Below the pieces are notes generated by a model. That model was not told the origin of the DNA, did no database searches, and was given only the letters and a program-made list of their open reading frames with translations. A DNA stretch of 64,000 bases, from the IMG/VR virus record IMGVR_UViG_3300028573_000011, positions 1 to 64,000 of that record; one strand, 5' to 3'. The stretch is from a virus. Shown in pieces: positions 1-40,296 of this stretch; position 1 is the first letter of the stretch; the number at the start of each line of letters is the position of its first letter. Both the position numbers and the translations under genes were made by a program.

Positions 1-1399
1 GGTACTCCTTGCGCAGGGCGGCTGCGGTCTCGGTGCCGCCGCCGAGGAAGAAGCCGCTGTTCGCCCACCGGTCCAGTGAGCGCAGCACGGACTCGCCGGG
101 CAGGATCGTGAAGTGCTTGGTGTGGGCGCCGGGGGCCTGGTGCGTGTACTGCTGCGTGGAGGAGAAGGAGACGACGTTGGCGGTGTCGCAGCGGATCGCG
201 AGGGCGATGCCGAGCAGCGCTGCGGCGTGCCACCGGGCCATCTCGGAGTTGTCCGACATGGGCTCGCGCATGGACGTTGAGGTGTCGACCATGATGAGGG
301 TTCGTCCGGGCAGCTCCGGGATGTTGGCCAGGGAGGCGGACAGCGCCCGCTCGAGTGCCCCGGCCCAGCGGAGATTGTGGCCGGCGGCCCGGTAGGCGGA
401 GAGGAAGCGGATCGGCAGTTGCCGGGACCGGGCGGCTTCGATGGGGTCGGCGATCCTGGCGGCGACGGTCTCGGCGGTGGTGTCTGAGATCTTCGCGTTG
501 TCGAGGTTCCGCAGGTTCCGGAGCAGGGCCATGTAGCCCATCGACGGGATGATCGCTTCCCACGCTGCGGCGTCCATCGGTCCTTGCAGCCAGCCGCTGA
601 GGGCTTCCCAGGTCATGCCGGCCTGGGCCAGCAGGCGATGGGCTCCGGGTTCTGTCAGGAGGGTTCGGCGCTTCTGGGTGGGGAGGCCCAGGAGCCATGC
701 GCGCCGGTTCAGCATGGGGAGGGAGGCCGGGATGGTGCTGCCTCGGCCGTGGCGGCGGTCCAGGGCACAGCGGAACAGGTCACCCTGCCAGGCCTTGGCG
801 GGGTCTGGGCTGGGGTGCACCAGGTCGATAACGTCGCCGAAGCGGAAGCCGGCGGCCGGGCTGTCGTACTTGAGCAGCGCGTGCTCGGTGTACAGCTGCC
901 GCACGGCGTCGGCGACGCCGTTCTTGACCGGCTTGGGGATGGCCCGGCCGTAGTGGGACGTCCAGTAGGCGAGGATCTCGCCGGGCTCGTCGGCGCGGGC
1001 GCAGGCGCTGCGGATGAACTGGCGGTTGTAGCCGGCGCCGTTGTCGGCTCCGGTGTCGAGCCGTGCCTTCACGGCTTCGCAGGCTACGACGACTGCGGCG
1101 CTGCGCATGTGGGCCGAGTTGCGCAGCCACGGGATGAAGCCAGCCATCCAGGCGGGGTCGTCGACGGCCACGGTCTGGGCAAGGGCGGCCAGGCGCTTGC
1201 CGCGGACCTCGGCGGTCTCGTAGTGGGTGTTCTGGCCGGCCATGTCGGTGACGGCGAGCAGGAAGAGCTCGCTGGCCGGGGTGCGCGCGAAGCCGGGGGC
1301 GCCCTCGTGGGTCAGGGCGTGGCCGGTGGTGGTGATCGGGCTAGTGATGCCGGCGGCACGGGCGGCGGCCAGGCCGGGCTTGCGATTCCAGTGGCCCAT
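1..1399 (-). CDS. rsr: Ro60/TROVE domain ribonucleoprotein (3' end outside window)
   Basis: Hand translation from ATG 1399 (RBS GGAAGG): THEGAPGFARTPASELFLLAV...WLRNSAHMRS...RADEPGEILAYW...YGRAIPKPVKNGVADAVRQLYTEHALLKYD...FRFGDVIDLVHP; vWA MIDAS motif LIMVDTSTSM near 270-300. Missing from the ORF track because it has no stop in the window. Confidence 0.95.
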   Translation of the reverse strand, partial: MGHWNRKPGLAAARAAGITSPITTTGHALTHEGAPGFARTPASELFLLAVTDMAGQNTHYETAEVRGKRLAALAQTVAVDDPAWMAGFIPWLRNSAHMRSAAVVVACEAVKARLDTGADNGAGYNRQFIRSACARADEPGEILAYWTSHYGRAIPKPVKNGVADAVRQLYTEHALLKYDSPAAGFRFGDVIDLVHPSPDPAKAWQGDLFRCALDRRHGRGSTIPASLPMLNRRAWLLGLPTQKRRTLLTEPGAHRLLAQAGMTWEALSGWLQGPMDAAAWEAIIPSMGYMALLRNLRNLDNAKISDTTAETVAARIADPIEAARSRQLPIRFLSAYRAAGHNLRWAGALERALSASLANIPELPGRTLIMVDTSTSMREPMSDNSEMARWHAAALLGIALAIRCDTANVVSFSSTQQYTHQAPGAHTKHFTILPGESVLRSLDRWANSGFFLGGGTETAAALRKEY

Positions 1400-13755: not shown

Positions 13756-13992
13756 TCACTCGGCGACCCGGCCGTATCCCGGCGGTGCGCTCGCGGCGGG
13801 CCGGCGCAGCGCCGGCGCCCGGCGCCCGGCGGCGCGCGCCGCCAGCTGCCGCAGGAGGTCCGGCACGCCGCAGGAGCACGGCCCGTCGCGGTCGCCATCG
13901 ATGAGCGCGCCAGGGCACAGGTCGTGGTGGATGGCGTCGGCGTCGGCGGCCGCGGCGCGCAAGGCGTCGGCGAGCGCCCCGGTTCGTTCCAT
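13756..13992 (-). CDS. Hypothetical protein (HHxxC...CxC)
   Basis: HHDLC...CSCGVP metal-binding-like motif. Confidence 0.45.
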   Translation of the reverse strand: MERTGALADALRAAAADADAIHHDLCPGALIDGDRDGPCSCGVPDLLRQLAARAAGRRAPALRRPAASAPPGYGRVAE

Positions 13993-14045
13993 GTACCGGT
14001 TTTACCCGGCCCGGCCCACACCCGGAGGCTTCCCGGGAAAACAGG

Positions 14046-14071
14046 GCCGCCCCGGCCGGAGCCGGGGCGGC
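14046..14071 (-). terminator. Terminator of cassette A
   Basis: GCCGCCCCGGC/GCCGGGGCGGC hairpin followed by CCTGTTTT on the minus strand. Confidence 0.65.
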
Positions 14072-14078
14072 GTGTGGG

Positions 14079-14480
14079 CTACTCGCGGTTCTCCTCGCCG
14101 CCGGGCGCGTCGCGCTCGGTGATGAAGTCCTCCTCCGCGCCCTCAGCCGCCCCAAGGGCGAACTGCAAGGCGATGTCGGCGGTGGTGAACCGGCCGTCGT
14201 GCGGTCCGGCGCCGAACTTCAGGACCTGGTCGAAGGCGATGATCCACAGGTGGATCGCCACCATGACGGCCTCGGCGGTTTCCTCGCCGATCGGCGAGAT
14301 CTCCACCAGTTCCAGCGCGTCGTACAGCGGGGCGATGGTCACCGCCGGAGACTCCCCGCTGATGATGGGGGAGATCCGGATCGGGAGAGGGAACTGCTGG
14401 AGCAGTCCCACGATCATCGCGTAGATGACGGCGAGCTTGGTGAGCAGCTCTTGGAACTGCTCTTCCTCAGGAGCGTCCAC
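14079..14480 (-). CDS. Helical hypothetical protein, cassette paralogue A
   Basis: Behind conserved leader repeat; helix-P(L/I)P(I/V)-helix pattern shared with B and C. Confidence 0.75.
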   Translation of the reverse strand: MDAPEEEQFQELLTKLAVIYAMIVGLLQQFPLPIRISPIISGESPAVTIAPLYDALELVEISPIGEETAEAVMVAIHLWIIAFDQVLKFGAGPHDGRFTTADIALQFALGAAEGAEEDFITERDAPGGEENRE

Positions 14481-14500
14481 GTTCCTGCCTTTCAGTGTGG

Positions 14501-14582
14501 TGTTGTCAATCTGCTGCCGTTCGGGTTCTCAACCCCTCTCGACACTTCTAACTATACAACATAGACTCCTAGCTATGCAACA
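14501..14582 (-). repeat. Conserved promoter/operator/leader repeat, copy A
   Basis: TGTTGCATAGCTAG-N7-TGTTGTATAGTTAG...GGGGTTGAGAACCCGAACGGCAGCAGATTGACAACA. Confidence 0.9.
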
Positions 14583-14640
14583 CTCGGGCTGGTGTTCATC
14601 CGATCGAATGGACTATCGTGGGCCGGGACGTCCCGCGAGA

Positions 14641-14700
14641 GTGTGGCGTCAATCTGCTGGGCCGATGGGGTTCTCAGAACGGCAAACCCCCGTCGGCCCC
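14641..14700. ncRNA. Orphan leader-like hairpin, candidate sRNA
   Basis: Keeps GTCAATCTGCTG and GGGTTCTCA of the leader repeat inside a GGGCCGA...TCGGCCC hairpin; lacks the promoter repeat and an ORF. Confidence 0.4.
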
Positions 14701-14716
14701 AAGACTTTGAAACGCA

Positions 14717-14747
14717 GAAGGGCCCCGGCTTCCGCCGGGGCCCTTCC
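14717..14747 (-). terminator. Terminator of cassette B
   Basis: GAAGGGCCCCGGC/GCCGGGGCCCTTC perfect hairpin. Confidence 0.75.
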
Positions 14748-14754
14748 TGCTGGA

Positions 14755-15141
14755 CTAGCCCTGAACCTCCCCATCCCCGCCGTCTGCGACGAGACCGAGC
14801 CCTGCGATGCGCAGCGCCTTGCCCGCTTCGAGCAGCAGGAGCCTGGTGTTCATCTCGGCCCAGTCACCGCCGCGAGCGGCGAACCAGGCCATTGCGAACA
14901 TCGCGCCCATCGTGCGCTGGAGCGCCTTGCGCATCATCATGGCCACGCTCGGCGCCAGACCCGGCATCACGCCGATGAGCTCGGCCGCGTGCATCAGCGT
15001 TTCGGCCGATGCCTCCAGGTTGTCGGCGAGTTCGAACCCGACGGGGATCGGCAGCGCCGCCATGAAGTCCCTCAGGAAGAGCGCCTGTTCGGCGAACTCC
15101 AGCTTGAGGACCTGGAGACGTGCCTCGTGGTCTTCGGACAT
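14755..15141 (-). CDS. Helical hypothetical protein, cassette paralogue B
   Basis: MSED...AEQ...LPIPV...MHAAEL; RBS GGGAGG. Confidence 0.8.
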   Translation of the reverse strand: MSEDHEARLQVLKLEFAEQALFLRDFMAALPIPVGFELADNLEASAETLMHAAELIGVMPGLAPSVAMMMRKALQRTMGAMFAMAWFAARGGDWAEMNTRLLLLEAGKALRIAGLGLVADGGDGEVQG

Positions 15142-15157
15142 GCTGTCCTCCCTGTTG

Positions 15158-15239
15158 TGTTGTCAATCTGCTGTCGTTCGGGTTCTCAACCCCTCCCGAC
15201 ACTTCTAACTATACAACAGGGAACCCTAGCTATGCAACA
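15158..15239 (-). repeat. Conserved promoter/operator/leader repeat, copy B
   Basis: Near-identical to copy A apart from the 7-bp spacer. Confidence 0.9.
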
Positions 15240-15256
15240 GTCGTCAGGGTGAACCC

Positions 15257-15655
15257 TCAGTCGGCGGCCGGCCTGCGCCGCGGCCGCCGACTCTCCAGGT
15301 AGTCCGCGACCGCGTTCGCCCGGTACTGCATCACGCCGTCCTTCTCCACACCCTCCCCGAACAGGCCGCGGTGCGCGTGCCCGGCCATCGTCGACCGCGG
15401 CTGCCCGATGATCTCCCCCACCTCCCGAGGCGTCACCAGCCGCGTCCCCAGCTTGCGCAGCCGGCTGACCGCGGCCAGGTTGCGTCGTGCAGCCAGCACG
15501 GCCTCCACTGCGGCCGCCTCGTAGGTGTCGTAGAGCCCGCGCTTGTCCCCCTTGGGCGGCCAGTCCTGCTGGCCAACCCACAGGTCCACCGTCTTGATCG
15601 AGACGCCGTACTTCGCGGCGATCTCCTTCTTCGTGAGCCACTTCGTGTCGTTCAT
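15257..15655 (-). CDS. Tandem Xis/AlpA-like wHTH DNA-binding protein
   Basis: WLTKKEIAAKYGVSIKTVDLW and LVTPREVGEIIGQPRSTM; RBS GAGGAG. Confidence 0.75.
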   Translation of the reverse strand: MNDTKWLTKKEIAAKYGVSIKTVDLWVGQQDWPPKGDKRGLYDTYEAAAVEAVLAARRNLAAVSRLRKLGTRLVTPREVGEIIGQPRSTMAGHAHRGLFGEGVEKDGVMQYRANAVADYLESRRPRRRPAAD

Positions 15656-15710
15656 GGTCGCGTTCTCCTCTTCCGGCGGCCAGGGAGGACCGTCCAGTCC
15701 GAAGCTCGGG

Positions 15711-15740
15711 GCCGCCCCGGTTGAGAAGACCGGGGCGGCC
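15711..15740 (-). terminator. Hairpin/terminator after cassette C
   Basis: GCCGCCCCGGT/ACCGGGGCGGC inverted repeat. Confidence 0.55.
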
Positions 15741-15746
15741 GTCAGG

Positions 15747-16124
15747 CTACTTAGCGCCCGGGGGCAGCTGGCCGCCGAGGGCGACCAGACACCTTCCGGC
15801 GAGTTCGAAGCTGACCACTGCGTGGAACCGCGACTGGCGCAGGATCTTCGGCATGCCGTGGTAGCTGCGCGCGTGAGCCAGGATCGCCGCAGTGATCCAG
15901 TTCTCGACCGCGTACAGCGCCAGGTTCTCCGCCTCGTTGAGGCCGCCGCGCTCCATGAGCACGTCGGCCGCGTGTCGCATGTTCTCGACCGCGACGGAGA
16001 GGTTCCCTTCGGCGGCGACGTTGATCGGCGGTCGCAGGATTCCGAGGAGTGCTGCGAGCACCGTCGTCTGTTCCGCCAGGTAACGCACCAGATCGGCGCG
16101 CTGGGCCTGGATGTCTTCGGACAT
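15747..16124 (-). CDS. Helical hypothetical protein, cassette paralogue C
   Basis: MSED...AEQ...LRPPINV...MRHAADV; RBS GGGAGG. Confidence 0.8.
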   Translation of the reverse strand: MSEDIQAQRADLVRYLAEQTTVLAALLGILRPPINVAAEGNLSVAVENMRHAADVLMERGGLNEAENLALYAVENWITAAILAHARSYHGMPKILRQSRFHAVVSFELAGRCLVALGGQLPPGAK

Positions 16125-16140
16125 CGTGTCCTCCCTGTTG

Positions 16141-16223
16141 TGTTGTCAATCTGCTTGCCGTTCGGGTTCTCAACCCCTCCCGACACCTCTAACTATACAA
16201 CACAAACTTCTAGCTATGCAACA
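16141..16223 (-). repeat. Conserved promoter/operator/leader repeat, copy C
   Basis: Near-identical to copies A and B apart from the 7-bp spacer. Confidence 0.9.
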
Positions 16224-16224
16224 C

Positions 16225-16596
16225 CTATTGCGGGTCAAGTTCCCCACGCTCGGACAGCCTGAAGGACACCAGCTCCCCATCGGCGACCACAGCCAGGAAC
16301 CGCATGCCCGGCAGCGCCTCCGCGTCAACCCCGAGCTGCTCGGCGACCAACTCCGCCGGGAACCAGTGCTTGTTCCCGCTCGGCGGGATCAGCAGCGCGC
16401 GCGCCTCAGAACCGCGGCCGATCGTCAGCGACACGCGTACCGGCACGGGCTCGTTGGCGACGGCTGCCATCCCCCGCGCCTCATCACGGCCCTGCGCTGC
16501 GTCGGGACCGGCGCCGGCAAGCATGATTTCGACGCGTGCCAGGACACCCTCAGTCGCCTCGCTCCCCACGCTCGCGGCCCGCGGCATCTCAGGCAC
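16225..16596 (-). CDS. Hypothetical protein
   Basis: Overlaps stop of the Phd-like gene; no recognisable toxin motif. Confidence 0.55.
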   Translation of the reverse strand: MPEMPRAASVGSEATEGVLARVEIMLAGAGPDAAQGRDEARGMAAVANEPVPVRVSLTIGRGSEARALLIPPSGNKHWFPAELVAEQLGVDAEALPGMRFLAVVADGELVSFRLSERGELDPQ

Positions 16597-16804
16597 GATC
16601 GGCCCCCGCCAGAACCGCGAGCACTGCATCCGGGCCGCCGGCGCGCTGAATGGCCTCGCCCAGCTCGGCAGGGACGAGGGCAACCTGGCGCTTTCCGCGG
16701 CTGGTCAGGAAGTACGTGCGGCGTAGCAGCTTCACCGCGTTCATCAGTTCGCTGAGGTTCGCACGGGCTTCGACAATCGGCTGGTCTTCGGAGTTCATGT
16801 CCAT
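16589..16804 (-). CDS. Phd/YefM-family antitoxin-like DNA-binding protein
   Basis: IVEARANLSELMNAV....TYFLTSRGKRQVALVP; TAGAAT 7 nt before ATG (leaderless). Confidence 0.85.
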   Translation of the reverse strand: MDMNSEDQPIVEARANLSELMNAVKLLRRTYFLTSRGKRQVALVPAELGEAIQRAGGPDAVLAVLAGADRA

Positions 16805-16811
16805 GGCGGCG

Positions 16812-16882
16812 ATTCTAGCAATCCGGCTTGATGTACAGGAAGGCTTCATGTACATTAAGACTCGTAAGGCCGAGCCGTACAA
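16812..16882. promoter_or_regulatory. Divergent promoters with GTACA repeats
   Basis: Plus: TTGATG-N17-TACATT; minus: TAGAAT; TGTACA x2 and CGTACA overlap them. Confidence 0.65.
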
Positions 16883-35811: not shown

Positions 35812-37098
35812 TCAGCGCCGGTGCTCCAGCGCTGCGTACTGTTCGCGGGTCCAGCCGAAGGACCAGGCCGCGGCCGCGACTGGGTCGGCGAAGTGGCCGG
35901 GGACGGTCAGGCCGAAGCGGCGGCGGGTACCGTCGCGCTCGGTGGAACCGTTGGTACACAGAAGAACGCGCACGTGGGCCCGGTAGACACGGCTGGGTAC
36001 GTCGTACAGCGCGAGTTCCTGGCCCGGGTTGCCGGGGTCCGGGACGGGCAGGCCGACGGGCACCATGGCAGCCTGGTCGATGAACCGGTCCCAGCCGAGG
36101 CGTTCGATGGCAACGCGTCGGATCTCGGTGTTGCGCTCGGCCAGGATCTTGTCGCTGGGCCACTCGGGGCCTTCGATGAGGTCGGCTGGGACTTGGGTGC
36201 CGTGCCAGGCGTGGATGCCCCATCCGTCGCGGTAGGCCACGGCTGGGCCCTTGTCGGCGTGAAGCTGTTGCTGATCGTCCAAATGGATGGACTCGGGTCG
36301 GTCGCAGATCACGACGGTGTCCTGGAAGGGCCACCAGGGGCCGGCGTTGCTGGCGATCAGCATCTCCGCGTGGAGCGCCGGCTTGTTGGGCTCGAACTTC
36401 GCCGGCGGAACCCCGTCGATCAGGGGCCCGCTGAGACGCGACCGGTTCCACGGCATGGGCAGGTACTCGGACATCTCCCTGGCTCGCCGCCGGTCCTCGG
36501 CTCCCATTCGCGCGATGAGCTCGCAGCGGGTCAGCCTTTCGGCATCGAACTGCCCCGGGTGCACGCGGAGTCTGCGGAGTGCGTAGTAGAGATCAGCGTC
36601 TCTGGCTGATCGAAGGTCGAAGCCCACCTGAAGAGTAGTCTCGCGATTCGGAATGACCGCGTTTGTGAGCTGGGCTCCGATGGGCCGGATGAAGTCGGCC
36701 GCGAGCATGCCTGAGACCCTGCTGGCCCACCAGACATTTTCGGTGTTGTAAAAGCCCTGTCGTTCGTGTGGTGGCAGGAGTACGTCCCAGGGCAGCGGCT
36801 GGTCGTGCGCGAGGAGGCATTTTTTGACGAGGCGGACGGCGTCGGCGGGCGAGGTGGCCCATTCGATCCAGGGCTGTCGCTGCTCGCGGGCCCGGTAGAA
36901 GTCGCTGATCCCGATCTCGGCCAGCTGCCGGTTGGCGGGCTCGGTGGACAGACCCCAGGTCCGCCACGTCCGGCTGAGTTCCTGGGCCCGGGTCGCCGGA
37001 TCCAGGTAGCGGTGAAGAGGCACCCACGCCTCGCGGGCCGACCAGTACGGCGAGAGGGGCGGCCGGGTCGAACTGTTGGGGATCGGTTCCGACGTCAT
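35812..37098 (-). CDS. DUF6745-like protein, paralogue 3
   Basis: GPWWPF...DRP...LHADKGPAVAYRDGWGIHAWHG...NTEIRRVAIERLGW...NGSTERDGTRRRFGLTVP. Confidence 0.85.
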   Translation of the reverse strand: MTSEPIPNSSTRPPLSPYWSAREAWVPLHRYLDPATRAQELSRTWRTWGLSTEPANRQLAEIGISDFYRAREQRQPWIEWATSPADAVRLVKKCLLAHDQPLPWDVLLPPHERQGFYNTENVWWASRVSGMLAADFIRPIGAQLTNAVIPNRETTLQVGFDLRSARDADLYYALRRLRVHPGQFDAERLTRCELIARMGAEDRRRAREMSEYLPMPWNRSRLSGPLIDGVPPAKFEPNKPALHAEMLIASNAGPWWPFQDTVVICDRPESIHLDDQQQLHADKGPAVAYRDGWGIHAWHGTQVPADLIEGPEWPSDKILAERNTEIRRVAIERLGWDRFIDQAAMVPVGLPVPDPGNPGQELALYDVPSRVYRAHVRVLLCTNGSTERDGTRRRFGLTVPGHFADPVAAAAWSFGWTREQYAALEHRR

Positions 37099-38372: not shown

Positions 38373-39695
38373 TCAGCGGCGGTGCTCCAGGGCGGCGTAG
38401 TCGTCGCGATCCCAGCCGAAGGTCCAGGCCGCGGCTTCGACCGGGTCGGTGAAGCGGGCCGGGACGGTCAGACCAAAGCGCCGACGCGTGCCATCGCGCT
38501 CCTCGGAGCCGTTCGTGCACAGCAGGACACGTACGGGGTTGCGGTAGATCCGGCCGGGCACGTCGTACAGCGCGAGCTCCTGGCCGGGGTTCCCCGGGTC
38601 CGGGACAGGGGCACCCACGGGCGCCAGCTTCGCGTCTGCGATGAACCGGTCCCAGCCGATGCGCTCGACGGCCGCGCGGCGGACCTCGGTGTTGGGGTGG
38701 GTCAGGATCTGCTTTGCGGTCCAGCCGGGCCCGTCGATCAGGTCGGCGGGGACAGGCGTGCCGTGCCAGAAGTAGACGCCCCAGCCGTCCGGGTAGACCA
38801 CGGCGGGGCCGTCCTCGGCGTGAGGACGCTCCTGCTGGTCCATCAGGATGCCGCTGGGGCGCTCGCAGGCGATGACCAGCTTGTCAAAGGGCCACCAAGG
38901 TCCGGCGCTGCGCGCGATTTTTGCCAGGGCGTCCAGGGCAGCGCTGCGGGGTCGGTTCGGGCGGGCCCGCTTGCCGACCTCGTGCAGAGCGAAGCTCTCG
39001 GCGTCGAACTGCCCGGGGATCAGCGGAGGGCCGTCCTTGCTGGCAAAGCGGACGAGCGTTCCTGCGGGCGACGTTGCCAGTGCTGCGCGGAAGACCTCGC
39101 GGCCGATCTGACCCACCAGCTGCAGGTTGGCCGTAGTCCCGAGCATGAACCTCCAGAGAACGTCGGTTCCCCCGACCAGCGCCTTGTATTCGTTGTCAGG
39201 CATGAGCTCGTCGCGTGACAGGCTTCTGGCATCAGCAGCGGCGATCACGGCCTTGTAGATTCCGACTGCGGCACGGGGTGACTGCGCCCAGATGATCTGG
39301 GACGGCTGTGGCAGCCCGCGCGCCTGGTACACCTTGCGGATACCGGCCTCGGCCGTGGCACGATCGGCGGGCTCGGTCGACAGCCCGGCTTTCGCCCACC
39401 GCGCGGTGGTGCTCGTTGAGATGCTCACGTCTCCGAAAGCCTCCACAGTGCTGAAGAACACGGGCAGGTCGAATTCCACGGAGAAATCCATCGTCGAGGG
39501 CAGCAGCGCACCTCTGTGATCGACGTTCCATGACACCGGCGTGTTGACGCCCGGGATCAGAACGGGTGGTGACGGGCTCACCGCGCCCGCGTGCTTCCGG
39601 GAGCGACGCCGGTGGCGGTGCAGGCCGACGGCCCCGGCGGCGGCACCGGCCGCTGCTGTGACGAAGGGCGCGACAGTGAGGATGGCGGTGATCAT
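38373..39695 (-). CDS. DUF6745-like protein, paralogue 1, N-terminal membrane anchor
   Basis: Same motifs; MITAILTVAPFVTAAAGAAAGAVGL then basic stretch. Confidence 0.85.
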   Translation of the reverse strand: MITAILTVAPFVTAAAGAAAGAVGLHRHRRRSRKHAGAVSPSPPVLIPGVNTPVSWNVDHRGALLPSTMDFSVEFDLPVFFSTVEAFGDVSISTSTTARWAKAGLSTEPADRATAEAGIRKVYQARGLPQPSQIIWAQSPRAAVGIYKAVIAAADARSLSRDELMPDNEYKALVGGTDVLWRFMLGTTANLQLVGQIGREVFRAALATSPAGTLVRFASKDGPPLIPGQFDAESFALHEVGKRARPNRPRSAALDALAKIARSAGPWWPFDKLVIACERPSGILMDQQERPHAEDGPAVVYPDGWGVYFWHGTPVPADLIDGPGWTAKQILTHPNTEVRRAAVERIGWDRFIADAKLAPVGAPVPDPGNPGQELALYDVPGRIYRNPVRVLLCTNGSEERDGTRRRFGLTVPARFTDPVEAAAWTFGWDRDDYAALEHRR

Positions 39696-39829
39696 CAGGG
39701 TCCGATCAGCTGGTCGACGCAGCAGGCGAGAGCAACGCCGCCGAGGGCTGCGATGAGGACGATCAGGGCAAGCAGCCCGGCTGCGGCTGCCAGGCGTCCG
39801 GCGGCCCACGCGGCCCGGCGCGCGGTCAC
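39695..39829 (-). CDS. Small membrane peptide
   Basis: Single TM helix, coupled on both sides. Confidence 0.5.
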   Translation of the reverse strand: MTARRAAWAAGRLAAAAGLLALIVLIAALGGVALACCVDQLIGP

Positions 39830-40296
39830 GGCGTCCTGCCGGGGCGGCTCGCGGTCGCGCGGCGGTGAAACTCGACGCGGCGCATGACGGCGCGGGCGTG
39901 CTCGCGCACGGGCGTGGGTGTCGGCGAGTTGGCGACGGCACCGACGACGCCGAGCAGCCCGTCGACGAGCCGGGCCGGCAGCAGGACGGCATTCCCGCCA
40001 GTTGGCGGCCGCGGCACCGGGACGGGGATGGGAACGGGAGCGGGCGTCTCGGGCTGCTGGGCTGGCCCCGGGGGTGCCGGGATGGTGCCGAGGCCGATGG
40101 CGATCGCAGCGGCCTCGGTGCGGCTGGCGGCGCCGAGCTTGAGGCAGATGCGGCTGAGGTGCGACTTGACGGTGAAGAACGCGATGCCGAGCTCGGCGCC
40201 GATCCGGGCGTTGGAGTGGCCGGCGGCCACCAGCACGAGGACGTCGATCTCGCGGGTGGACAGCGGGGAGCCTAGGCGGGGCGTGCGGCGCTTCAT
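39826..40296 (-). CDS. LuxR-type HTH regulator
   Basis: LSTREIDVLVLVAAGHSNARIGAELGIAFFTVKSHLSRICLKLGAASRTEA. Confidence 0.9.
   Translation of the reverse strand: MKRRTPRLGSPLSTREIDVLVLVAAGHSNARIGAELGIAFFTVKSHLSRICLKLGAASRTEAAAIAIGLGTIPAPPGPAQQPETPAPVPIPVPVPRPPTGGNAVLLPARLVDGLLGVVGAVANSPTPTPVREHARAVMRRVEFHRRATASRPGRTP

What the first reader, a model, noticed from the sequence alone, without database searches (positions are those of the whole stretch)
14046..16223. Triplicated regulatory cassette driving three diverged paralogues: candidate new regulated system
Seen: three ~82-bp copies, each with TTGCAT-N18-TATAGT embedded in two 14-bp direct repeats (TGTTGYATAGYTAG) 21 bp apart. The 7-bp spacer differs in all three (GAGTCTA, GGTTCCC, AAGTTTG) while the 14-mers are invariant. 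A conserved ~45-nt leader (GGGUU-GAG-AACCC hairpin, GCAGAUUGACAAC) precedes the RBS. Each cassette drives a 125-133 aa helical protein with acidic start and P(L/I/P)-type hinge and ends in its own hairpin. The non-coding DNA is far better conserved than the proteins. Inference: one regulator and one RNA-level control act on a diversifying effector family (toxin, exclusion, anti-defence or immunity specificity variants). I recognise no known family.
Basis: partly seen in the sequence, partly recalled or inferred. Interest (0 to 1): 0.8.

Follow-up and report, generated by a model that had tools for sequence, protein, structure and literature searches.

The report
Self-contained gene units in Streptomyces phages
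The three repeats are real: they are the fixed promoter plus folded RNA leader that precedes every copy of an unnamed family of small acidic proteins, found with two partner genes in about 4% of sampled Streptomyces-type genomes, mostly in prophages; what the proteins do is unknown.

Summary
Three roughly 90-bp cassettes on the minus strand each precede a diverged gene of 125-133 aa and each gene has its own terminator.

It is not a local triplication. A profile of the protein family found 1-4 tandem copies in 15 of 401 sampled genomes of the order that holds Catenulispora. Every copy I examined has the same unit: an upstream terminator, a GTGTTGCAA -35 box, a -10, a two-tier leader hairpin, a CA-rich tail with Shine-Dalgarno, and the ORF. 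A covariance model of 35 cassettes hit 27 sites in 298 kb, all in front of family genes.

Every locus checked also carries a gene with a shared roughly 70-aa C-terminal domain ("U") and a tandem MerR/BldC-like winged-helix protein. Most loci sit just upstream of terS-terL-portal in prophages.

Cassettes are 78-92% identical within most genomes (58% in one). The coding sequences they drive are 53-61% identical, and the proteins 20-41%. The proteins are acidic four-helix bundles (median pI 4.5) with no Pfam, PADLOC, NCBIfam or PDB relative. The leader matches no Rfam family.

Regulation by the tandem winged-helix protein, an RNA-level role for the leader, and a phage-host conflict function are all inferred. 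An earlier-findings look-up with one related family protein (G021) found no look-alike elsewhere.

The parts
16589..16882 (-). Phd/YefM-like antitoxin gene (97 aa). Its stop lies 1 nt before the U-gene start. This neighbour is specific to the window and is not part of the conserved module.
   Evidence: TIGR01552 scores 24.2 bits against a cut-off of 20.8. Pfam PF02604 scores 24 bits, below its cut-off of 29.8. The TGAGATG junction was read.
16225..16587 (-). U-domain protein gene (120 aa). The conserved C-terminal ~70 aa contain the motif PPSGxKxWFPA..LAEQLGV. This is the first gene of the conserved module.
   Evidence: It is 50% identical to the Catenulispora homologue. tblastn finds a U-domain match in every related genome tested. 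No Pfam, PADLOC or NCBIfam match.
16125..16227 (-). Cassette 3. Repeat R1 is 16210-16223 and holds the -35 TTGCAT. Repeat R2 is 16189-16202 and holds the -10 TATAGT. The leader with its hairpin and Shine-Dalgarno is 16125-16188.
   Evidence: CM R1 scores 85.8 bits and CM R2 66 bits.
15747..16124 (-). Paralogue 3 (P0002, 125 aa). It belongs to the clade with the GGxWPP C-terminus.
   Evidence: The clade has 99/97 support and includes Catenulispora gene A.
15708..15740 (-). Terminator-type hairpin after paralogue 3: an 11-bp G+C stem with loop UCUUCUCAA.
   Evidence: Read. It has no T-run, so the simple scan does not list it.
15257..15655 (-). Tandem winged-helix (MerR/BldC/Xis-type) DNA-binding protein gene (132 aa). 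It has no cassette of its own.
   Evidence: Pfam places MerR_1 at residues 10-52 and HTH_17 at 74-124. phrog_2474 matches at 1.2e-10. The AF2 model shows two wHTH units with pLDDT 84.5. Single domains match BldC, RacA and small-terminase HTH with TM 0.6-0.78. Homologues occur in all related loci.
15142..15243 (-). Cassette 2. R1 is 15226-15239, R2 is 15205-15218 and the leader is 15142-15204.
   Evidence: CM R1 scores 90.3 bits.
14755..15141 (-). Paralogue 2 (P0001, 128 aa).
   Evidence: The AF2 model is a four-helix bundle with pLDDT 88.2 and pTM 0.80. It falls in a clade with Catenulispora genes B and C.
14720..14747 (-). Terminator-type hairpin after paralogue 2.
   Evidence: Inverted repeat I7. 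Only terminator-like sRNA models match here, below their gathering scores.
14642..14700 (-). Leader copy with no promoter and no gene. It has a long stem (7+7 bp) around the UGAGAA motif, followed by AGCAGAUUGAC.
   Evidence: Families D3 and D4; fold of -42 kcal/mol; CM R1 scores 15.3 bits, E 0.015. Its architecture matches the long-stem leaders that precede the winged-helix gene in canonical loci.
14481..14586 (-). Cassette 1. R1 is 14569-14582, R2 is 14548-14561 and the leader is 14481-14547.
   Evidence: CM R1 scores 77.5 bits.
14079..14480 (-). Paralogue 1 (P0003, 133 aa; GTG start; pI 4.1, net charge -18).
   Evidence: It falls in a clade with P0013 at 94/94 support.
14046..14071 (-). Intrinsic terminator after paralogue 1: an 11-bp G+C stem followed by a T-run.

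Best explanation
This is the window's copy of a conserved accessory module of temperate actinophages. The module holds a U-domain gene, one to four genes for small acidic four-helix-bundle proteins, and a tandem winged-helix regulator gene. Each bundle-protein gene is a complete expression unit. Shown by sequence comparison: the previous unit's terminator, a fixed promoter, a ~60-nt leader, the ORF and its own terminator. The promoter has an extended -35 box (G)TGTTGCA and a -10 located 18 bp downstream. In the window's type both elements sit inside 14-bp direct repeats spaced 21 bp, two helical turns, apart. The leader has a two-tier hairpin with a conserved apical loop, then a CA-rich single-stranded tail and a strong Shine-Dalgarno. 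Inferred: host HrdB-type RNA polymerase transcribes the units. Inferred: the tandem winged-helix protein places one domain on each direct repeat, covers -35 and -10, and so represses all units together. Inferred: because its gene follows a unit's terminator and has no promoter cassette, it is made by read-through, which would close a negative feedback loop. Inferred: the leader hairpin acts in the mRNA, as a 5' stabiliser or a site for translational control. Inferred: the proteins evolve fast, are acidic and multi-copy, and lie at the end of the phage genome next to the packaging genes, so they most likely act on host or rival-phage targets (anti-defence or exclusion).
For: Anatomy in the window. 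The same module with the same order of elements occurs in the Catenulispora chromosome and in a prophage of genome G021. The family was found in 15 of 401 genomes of the order, with 1-4 tandem copies each, and every upstream region examined carries the cassette. CM R2 hit 27 sites in 298 kb, all in front of family genes. The U-domain and tandem winged-helix genes were found in every related genome checked. In four loci terS, terL, portal and a minor capsid gene follow directly. Cassettes are far better conserved than the coding sequence. The paralogue lineages predate the split of the genomes, yet cassettes resemble each other most within a genome. Positions 12-14 of both direct repeats change together between lineages: TAG/TAG in the window and most type-I loci, CAG/CAG in Catenulispora, ACT/ACT in G021. 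The 7-bp spacers between the repeats are free to vary. Hairpin evidence: 97.9% of cells pair and two pairs show changes on both sides. There are 12 distinct outer helices, and an enclosing helix of at least 3 bp occurs in 20 of 35 leaders against 17% of flank shuffles. Each winged-helix domain resembles BldC, RacA or Xis-type units. BldC and mycobacteriophage D29 Gp36 bind direct repeats, and Gp36 represses phage genes (PMC5859096, PMC12266134). The proteins are acidic, with median pI 4.5 and net charge -10.
Against: There are no expression data: no RNA run is listed and no transcription start is mapped. The -35 hexamer matches the consensus at only 3 of 6 positions, and the generic scan calls none of the three promoters. 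A second promoter type (TTGCAA-N18-CATAAT), found in several genomes with the same winged-helix protein, shows no clear direct repeat, so pairing of the protein with the repeats is not general. The G021 winged-helix protein is about 60% identical to those of TAG-type loci although its repeats end in ACT. Folding z-scores of the window's own leaders are weak, -0.3 to -2.3. The related sequences are not independent samples. Nothing links the proteins to any target: there is no PADLOC, Pfam or structural match beyond a generic helical bundle. The Catenulispora copy has no phage gene within 10 kb. In the window phage the module is not next to the terminase.
Confidence: 0.5

Rival explanations
1. 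The cassette is only an efficient constitutive expression signal, a good promoter with a stabilising 5' hairpin and a strong ribosome site, comparable to the T7 gene 10 leader. It has no dedicated regulator. The direct repeat is a by-product of similar -35 and -10 surroundings.
For: The tail is CA-rich and unstructured and ends in GGAGGA. Type-II promoters lack a clear repeat. Only family genes carry the cassette.
Against: Positions 12-14 of both repeats lie outside the -35 and -10 hexamers, yet they are conserved and change together between lineages. A winged-helix gene is kept in every locus. The apical loop sequences are conserved beyond what stability alone needs.
Confidence: 0.2
2. The tandem winged-helix protein is an activator, acting like MerR or BldC by distorting DNA at an 18-bp-spacer promoter. 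Alternatively it serves another task such as excision or packaging. On this reading the units are switched on at a set stage and are not repressed.
For: The domains are MerR/Xis/small-terminase-like. In many loci the gene sits immediately before terS. The -35 is weak. BldC both activates and represses (PMC5859096; the dual role is from my own knowledge of that work).
Against: Sites that cover both -35 and -10 usually repress. The gene travels with the module even in the non-phage Catenulispora island. A separate terS with HTH_38 is present.
Confidence: 0.2
3. The conserved leader works as DNA, not RNA. It would be a further protein-binding site or a cruciform: its reverse complement carries TGTTGTCAAT, which resembles the repeat core TGTTGY.
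For: The TGTTGT motif appears in inverted orientation about 55 bp downstream of R2 in the window and in Catenulispora (read). Stem covariation fits a DNA hairpin equally well.
Against: The tail differs in class-B leaders (CCACCCACCGAAAGGA) while the hairpin is retained. The element always lies between the -10 and the start codon on the coding strand. The winged-helix gene has a leader of the same type but no promoter.
Confidence: 0.1
4. The three copies result from recent duplication or gene conversion in this phage and have no selected function.
For: The cassettes are highly identical within the genome.
Against: The spacers differ completely while the flanks are identical. The paralogue lineages are old. 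The unit is conserved across 15 genomes.
Confidence: 0.03
5. The bundle proteins serve the phage's own late functions, such as control of late transcription or packaging. They would not be host-conflict effectors.
For: The position directly upstream of terS/terL in prophages is the classical place for late regulators (the general rule is from my own knowledge).
Against: Copy number varies from 1 to 4 and the sequences diverge fast. Each gene has its own promoter and terminator. The module also occurs away from packaging genes in the window phage and in a chromosome island without phage genes.
Confidence: 0.17

Closest known systems
Start-associated sequences (SAS) and extended SAS of Cluster K mycobacteriophages (PMC3203893)
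   Same: Both are short conserved non-coding sequences, repeated within an actinophage genome, placed immediately upstream of start codons and including the ribosome site. Both have an adjacent inverted-repeat element, consensus differences between lineages and an unknown function.
   Different: SAS sit in front of many unrelated gene families, 10-19 per genome. Here the element precedes one family only (27 of 27 hits) and comes with its own promoter. The SAS authors found little support for RNA pairing in ESAS, whereas here the helices keep pairing through different sequences. There is no sequence similarity.
BldC of Streptomyces and Gp36 of mycobacteriophage D29 (PMC5859096, PMC12266134)
   Same: Both are small MerR-type winged-helix units without the MerR coiled coil. 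They bind direct repeats head to tail, and Gp36 represses phage genes. Single domains of the window protein superpose on BldC with TM 0.66-0.70 and rmsd 2.5.
   Different: The window protein joins two such units in one chain. It scores far below the BldC family threshold, 16.6 against 77 bits. Its repeats are 14 bp spaced 21 bp, not BldC's AATT-type repeats. Binding is untested.
Anti-CRISPR operons with Aca repressors (from my own knowledge)
   Same: Both have small, fast-evolving phage proteins of variable number, driven by a promoter of their own, with an HTH gene fixed in the same cluster that could restrain that promoter.
   Different: Aca proteins bind inverted repeats and the genes usually share one promoter. 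Here each gene has its own promoter, leader and terminator. No anti-defence activity is shown and there is no PADLOC or Acr-type match.
Phage morons (autonomous promoter-gene-terminator units in prophages; from my own knowledge)
   Same: Each unit has its own promoter-like site and terminator and lies between conserved phage blocks.
   Different: Morons are usually single, unrelated insertions. These units form a family that shares one regulatory cassette and two fixed partner genes.

Membership tests
SAS/ESAS of Cluster K mycobacteriophages | A 13-bp asymmetric consensus GGGATAGGAGCCC lying 3-7 bp before the start codon | tested here: not met
   The leaders end in GGGAGGAC or AAGGAGGAC after a CA-rich tail, and no such 13-mer is present (read). 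The definition comes from PMC3203893.
SAS/ESAS of Cluster K mycobacteriophages | Placement in front of many unrelated gene families of one genome | tested here: not met
   CM R2 hits 27 sites in 298 kb, all before genes of one family. There are only three sites in the 95-kb phage.
BldC family regulators | Sequence membership in NCBIfam NF033787, cut-off 77 bits | tested here: not met
   The score is 16.6 bits, E 0.0053, over residues 6-27 only.
BldC family regulators | A MerR-type winged helix without a coiled-coil dimerisation helix | tested here: met
   The AF2 model has two wHTH units joined by one helix. Foldseek aligns single domains to 6ama_B and 6amk_B with TM 0.66-0.70. Note that the protein has two units whereas BldC has one.
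BldC family regulators | Head-to-tail binding to DNA direct repeats | not testable with these tools
   Direct repeats are present at the promoters. Binding needs EMSA or footprinting.
Acr-Aca type anti-defence operon | The HTH regulator binds inverted repeats in the operon promoter | tested here: not met
   The conserved promoter elements are direct repeats, not inverted.
Acr-Aca type anti-defence operon | The proteins inhibit a host defence system | not testable with these tools
   There is no similarity to any PADLOC, Pfam or PDB entry.
Moron (autonomous prophage transcription unit) | Own promoter and own terminator flanking a single ORF | tested here: inconclusive
   Terminator hairpins follow each ORF. 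The promoter is inferred from conserved -35 and -10 boxes only, and the generic scan does not call it.
Type II toxin-antitoxin pair (Phd/YefM with a toxin), for genes 16589-16882 and 16225-16587 | A Phd/YefM antitoxin domain | tested here: inconclusive
   TIGR01552 scores 24.2 bits, above its cut-off of 20.8. Pfam PF02604 scores 24 bits, below its cut-off of 29.8.
Type II toxin-antitoxin pair (Phd/YefM with a toxin), for genes 16589-16882 and 16225-16587 | The partner belongs to a known toxin family | tested here: not met
   The U protein has no Pfam, NCBIfam or PADLOC match. In other genomes the U domain has other N-terminal partners and no Phd gene.
Any Rfam RNA family | A covariance-model match to the leader | tested here: not met
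   Nothing matched the cassettes at E up to 1 in the window, and nothing at E up to 0.1 in five related loci.

The most novel reading that the evidence does not exclude
The leader is a new class of cis-regulatory RNA: a two-tier hairpin with a conserved apical loop and purine-rich internal loop, read by a module protein or a small ligand. Together with a tandem winged-helix repressor of direct repeats, it gives two-layer control over a diversifying family of acidic phage proteins. These proteins would disarm host defences or exclude rival phages on entry. A long-stem version of the same RNA would gate read-through into the regulator gene.
Probability: 0.25. Interest if true: 0.75.

Novelty: new variant of a known kind. 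Interest (0 to 1): 0.6.

Why it matters
It defines a compact, unannotated three-component module found in roughly one in 25 sampled Streptomyces-type genomes, most of it in prophages. The regulatory DNA and RNA are under much stronger constraint than the proteins they control.

It yields three things that can be tested at once:
- a candidate new structured 5' leader that is absent from Rfam;
- a natural tandem version of the BldC/Xis-type winged helix, with a matching pair of direct repeats whose specificity positions differ between lineages;
- a fast-evolving acidic protein family placed at the genome end next to the packaging genes.

The promoter-leader unit could also serve as a portable expression part for Streptomyces.

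Tried and rejected
- **Isolated phages and plasmids.** DNA searches of INPHARED phages and PLSDB plasmids with 13900-16800 found nothing. Protein searches in plasmids (paralogue 2) and phages (G021 winged-helix protein) also found nothing. Only the N-terminal part of the G021 U-fusion protein matches phages Chymera and Kromp.
- **Exact-pattern scans.** IMG/VR gave no hit for the operator or the leader. The leader pattern in metagenome contigs gave three chance matches inside unrelated coding sequence.
- **The search for related loci.** Family, U and winged-helix alignments found nothing in viral or metagenome contigs.
- **Early homology searches.** The first word-based and profile searches suggested a tiny family of 6 and 11 hits. 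This was an artefact of a narrow profile and was corrected. Word-based searches with the winged-helix and U proteins returned only themselves.
- **Structure searches for paralogue 2.** Foldseek against PDB and BFVD, VIA-align wide and the ESM Atlas gave only generic helical bundles. A profile against PDB sequences gave nothing below E 0.3.
- **Sequencing runs.** No RNA holder is listed. Contigs of four other rhizosphere runs were identical fragments of the same phage and gave no variant information.
- **HEPN idea.** An Rx4H motif in paralogue 3 is not conserved in the family.
- **Membrane-protein idea.** The helices carry many charged residues, and the model is a soluble bundle.
- **Leader peptide.** The GTG-initiated frame in the window leaders is absent in Catenulispora.
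- **Alignment-based folding.** RNAalifold on the MAFFT alignment recovered only the inner stem, because the outer helices are misaligned. Per-sequence folding was used instead.
- **Gene-less leader as a general feature.** CM R2 found no gene-less copy in nine other loci.
Full report
**Setting.** The window is the first 64 kb of a 95,441-bp IMG/VR virus record with 70% G+C and a 127-bp terminal repeat. The record encodes portal, major capsid, tail tube and tape-measure proteins. It also encodes an FtsK/TraB-like protein and a GntR regulator. It is therefore a tailed actinophage with plasmid-like genes. Sequencing runs place it in rhizosphere metagenomes.

- Three 91-nt direct copies lie at 14496-14586, 15153-15243 and 16137-16227.
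- The 14-mer TGTTGYATAGYTAG occurs six times on the minus strand without mismatch, in pairs 21 bp apart. It occurs nowhere else in the window or the record, and 0.04 matches are expected by chance.
- The 7-bp spacers differ completely between the three copies.
- Each cassette precedes an ORF with coding-type composition: 14079-14480, 14755-15141 and 15747-16124. Each ORF ends in a G+C-rich hairpin.
- The proteins are about 20% identical to each other. The 95 nt upstream of the starts are 84-88% identical and the CDS 58%.
- A fourth, gene-less leader copy lies at 14642-14700.
- A gene for a protein with two MerR/Xis-type winged helices lies at 15257-15655, between units 3 and 2.

**The family is not confined to this phage.** The first searches suggested a tiny family, but two hits were adjacent genes of Catenulispora yoronensis. 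That locus carries the same module:
- a homologue of window gene 16225-16587, here called U, at 50% identity;
- a cassette and gene, then the tandem winged-helix gene, then two further cassette-gene units;
- a weak gene-less leader copy.

The six cassettes from the two loci align end to end.

A search with the U alignment then found a prophage in genome G021. There a U domain is fused to a larger protein and is followed by one cassette-gene unit and the winged-helix gene. A wider protein profile found the family in 15 of 401 sampled genomes of the order, with 1-4 tandem copies each. In a class-wide sample it appeared in only 3 of 401. All upstream regions carry the cassette. A covariance model built from 35 cassettes found 27 sites in 298 kb of window, phage remainder and loci, and every one lies in front of a family gene.

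Every related genome also encodes the U domain and the tandem winged-helix protein. In four loci the winged-helix gene is followed directly by terS (HTH_38), terL, portal and a minor capsid gene. In others a terminase lies a few kb away. Most copies are therefore in prophages, at the end of the non-structural arm. The Catenulispora island has only ordinary chromosomal neighbours within 10 kb.

**Anatomy of the unit.** The -35 region is (G)TGTTGCA in nearly all copies, and the -10 lies 18 bp downstream. There are two promoter types.
- Type I includes the window, Catenulispora, G021 and eight other genomes. Here -35 and -10 sit in 14-bp direct repeats 21 bp apart (TGTTGCAAnnnTAG, N7, TGCTGTAAAGTTAG). 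Positions 12-14 lie outside both hexamers but are the same in both repeats of a cassette, and they differ between lineages: TAG, CAG and ACT.
- Type II (TTGCAA-N18-CATAAT or CATACT) shows no clear second repeat.

The leader has four parts:
- an inner GGGG/CCCC stem, with loop GUGAGAG (UUGAGAA in the window) or CCGCGAA;
- a small purine-rich internal loop;
- an outer helix;
- a CA-rich tail that runs into GGAGGA.

On the six window and Catenulispora leaders, 97.9% of cells pair and two pairs change on both sides. Across 35 leaders the outer helix has 12 different sequences. An enclosing helix of at least 3 bp is present in 20 of 35 leaders, against 17% of flank shuffles, and the mean z-score is -1.4. 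No Rfam family matches.

In canonical loci the winged-helix gene has no promoter cassette. It has a long-stem version of the leader, with 10-11-bp outer stems that differ in sequence, z-scores of -1.5 to -3.8, and the same tail and Shine-Dalgarno as its genome's other leaders. The gene-less copies in the window and in Catenulispora have this long-stem architecture. In both loci the winged-helix gene sits after the first unit, not at the end. I therefore read the gene-less copies as that leader left without its gene. Whether they still act is open.

**Evolution.** The tree separates a paralogue-3 clade (99/97 support) that contains window, Catenulispora and metagenome members from the remaining family members. 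Paralogues 1 and 2 also have their own orthologues. So the gene lineages are older than the genomes compared.

Cassettes nevertheless resemble each other most within a genome: 78-92% within most genomes (58% in G731), against 62-77% between genomes. Identical repeats flank unrelated spacers. Plain gene conversion of the whole tract would have homogenised the spacers too. The pattern instead points to selection on defined positions, with lineage-wide co-adaptation to trans-acting factors.

**The proteins.** AlphaFold gives a confident four-helix bundle for paralogue 2 (pLDDT 88). Foldseek, VIA-align, the ESM Atlas and a profile search of PDB sequences return only generic bundles. There is no Pfam, PADLOC or NCBIfam match, and only a weak unnamed PHROG. 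The family shares an acidic N-terminus, an LPxP(I/V) turn after helix 1 and an acidic tail. Median pI is 4.5 and median net charge -10.

The tandem winged-helix model has pLDDT 84.5. Its single domains superpose on BldC, RacA and small-terminase HTH units. Its sequence score for the BldC family is far below threshold.

**Reading.**
- Shown: a conserved three-component module in which every bundle-protein gene is a self-contained promoter-leader-ORF-terminator unit. The non-coding part is under stronger constraint than the coding part.
- Inferred, in falling order of confidence:
  1. The cassette holds the promoter, and the hairpin forms in the mRNA.
  2. The tandem winged-helix protein reads the two direct repeats. 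Repression is more likely than activation, because the sites cover -35 and -10. BldC and D29 Gp36 provide precedents for direct-repeat binding by this fold.
  3. The regulator is made by read-through, which would give feedback.
  4. The proteins act in phage-host or phage-phage conflict.

Point 4 rests only on fast divergence, variable copy number, acidity, autonomous expression and position at the genome end next to the packaging genes. In lambda-type phages that end enters the cell first; this is from my own knowledge.

**Comparison with known systems.** The closest known non-coding analogue is the SAS/ESAS system of Cluster K mycobacteriophages. It differs in serving many unrelated genes, in lacking a promoter, and in lacking pairing support. 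Stoperators, Acr-Aca operons and morons each share one aspect, and none fits as a family (see the membership tests).

**Limits.** One earlier follow-up report that overlaps this stretch exists and was withheld. An earlier-findings look-up by sequence, using the family protein of G021, found no look-alike on other DNA.

Noticed in passing
window 16585-16591 and 16589-16882: A Phd/YefM-like antitoxin gene ends 1 nt before the start of the U gene (TGAGATG), an antitoxin-toxin-like coupling. It is seen only in this phage. In other genomes the U domain has different N-terminal extensions of 79-323 aa.
   Followed up: partly
window 15708-15740: The loop of the hairpin after paralogue 3 (UCUUCUCAA) is the exact complement of the leader apical loop UUGAGAA, so a loop-loop contact is possible. 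The match is not conserved in Catenulispora.
   Followed up: no
window 14539-14567 (+): A sigma-70-like site TCGACA-N17-TAGACT lies on the opposite strand inside cassette 1. It uses that cassette's unique spacer and is absent from the other two cassettes.
   Followed up: no
L021:7819-8736 (genome G021): The U domain is fused to a ~230-aa N-terminal part with CxxC pairs. That part is homologous to gp50 of Streptomyces phage Chymera and gp65 of Kromp, genes near the right genome end next to MerR-like HTH and HNH genes.
   Followed up: partly
L051 and L031 (genomes G083, G074): In these loci the two cassette-gene units lie on opposite strands with the winged-helix gene between them, so the units can be inverted as whole blocks.
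   Followed up: no
record 91158-94026, outside the window (L005:11158-14026): Adjacent polynucleotide kinase-phosphatase and T4-type RNA ligase genes form a tRNA-repair pair, of the kind phages use against anticodon nucleases.
   Followed up: no
window 35812-37098 and 38373-39992: Two paralogous DUF6745 proteins (428 and 539 aa) lie close together on the minus strand.
   Followed up: no
window 1-127 and record end: The 127-bp terminal direct repeat of the record may simply mark a circular assembly. That would fit the plasmid-like TraB/GntR genes at 2.9-8.7 kb.
   Followed up: no
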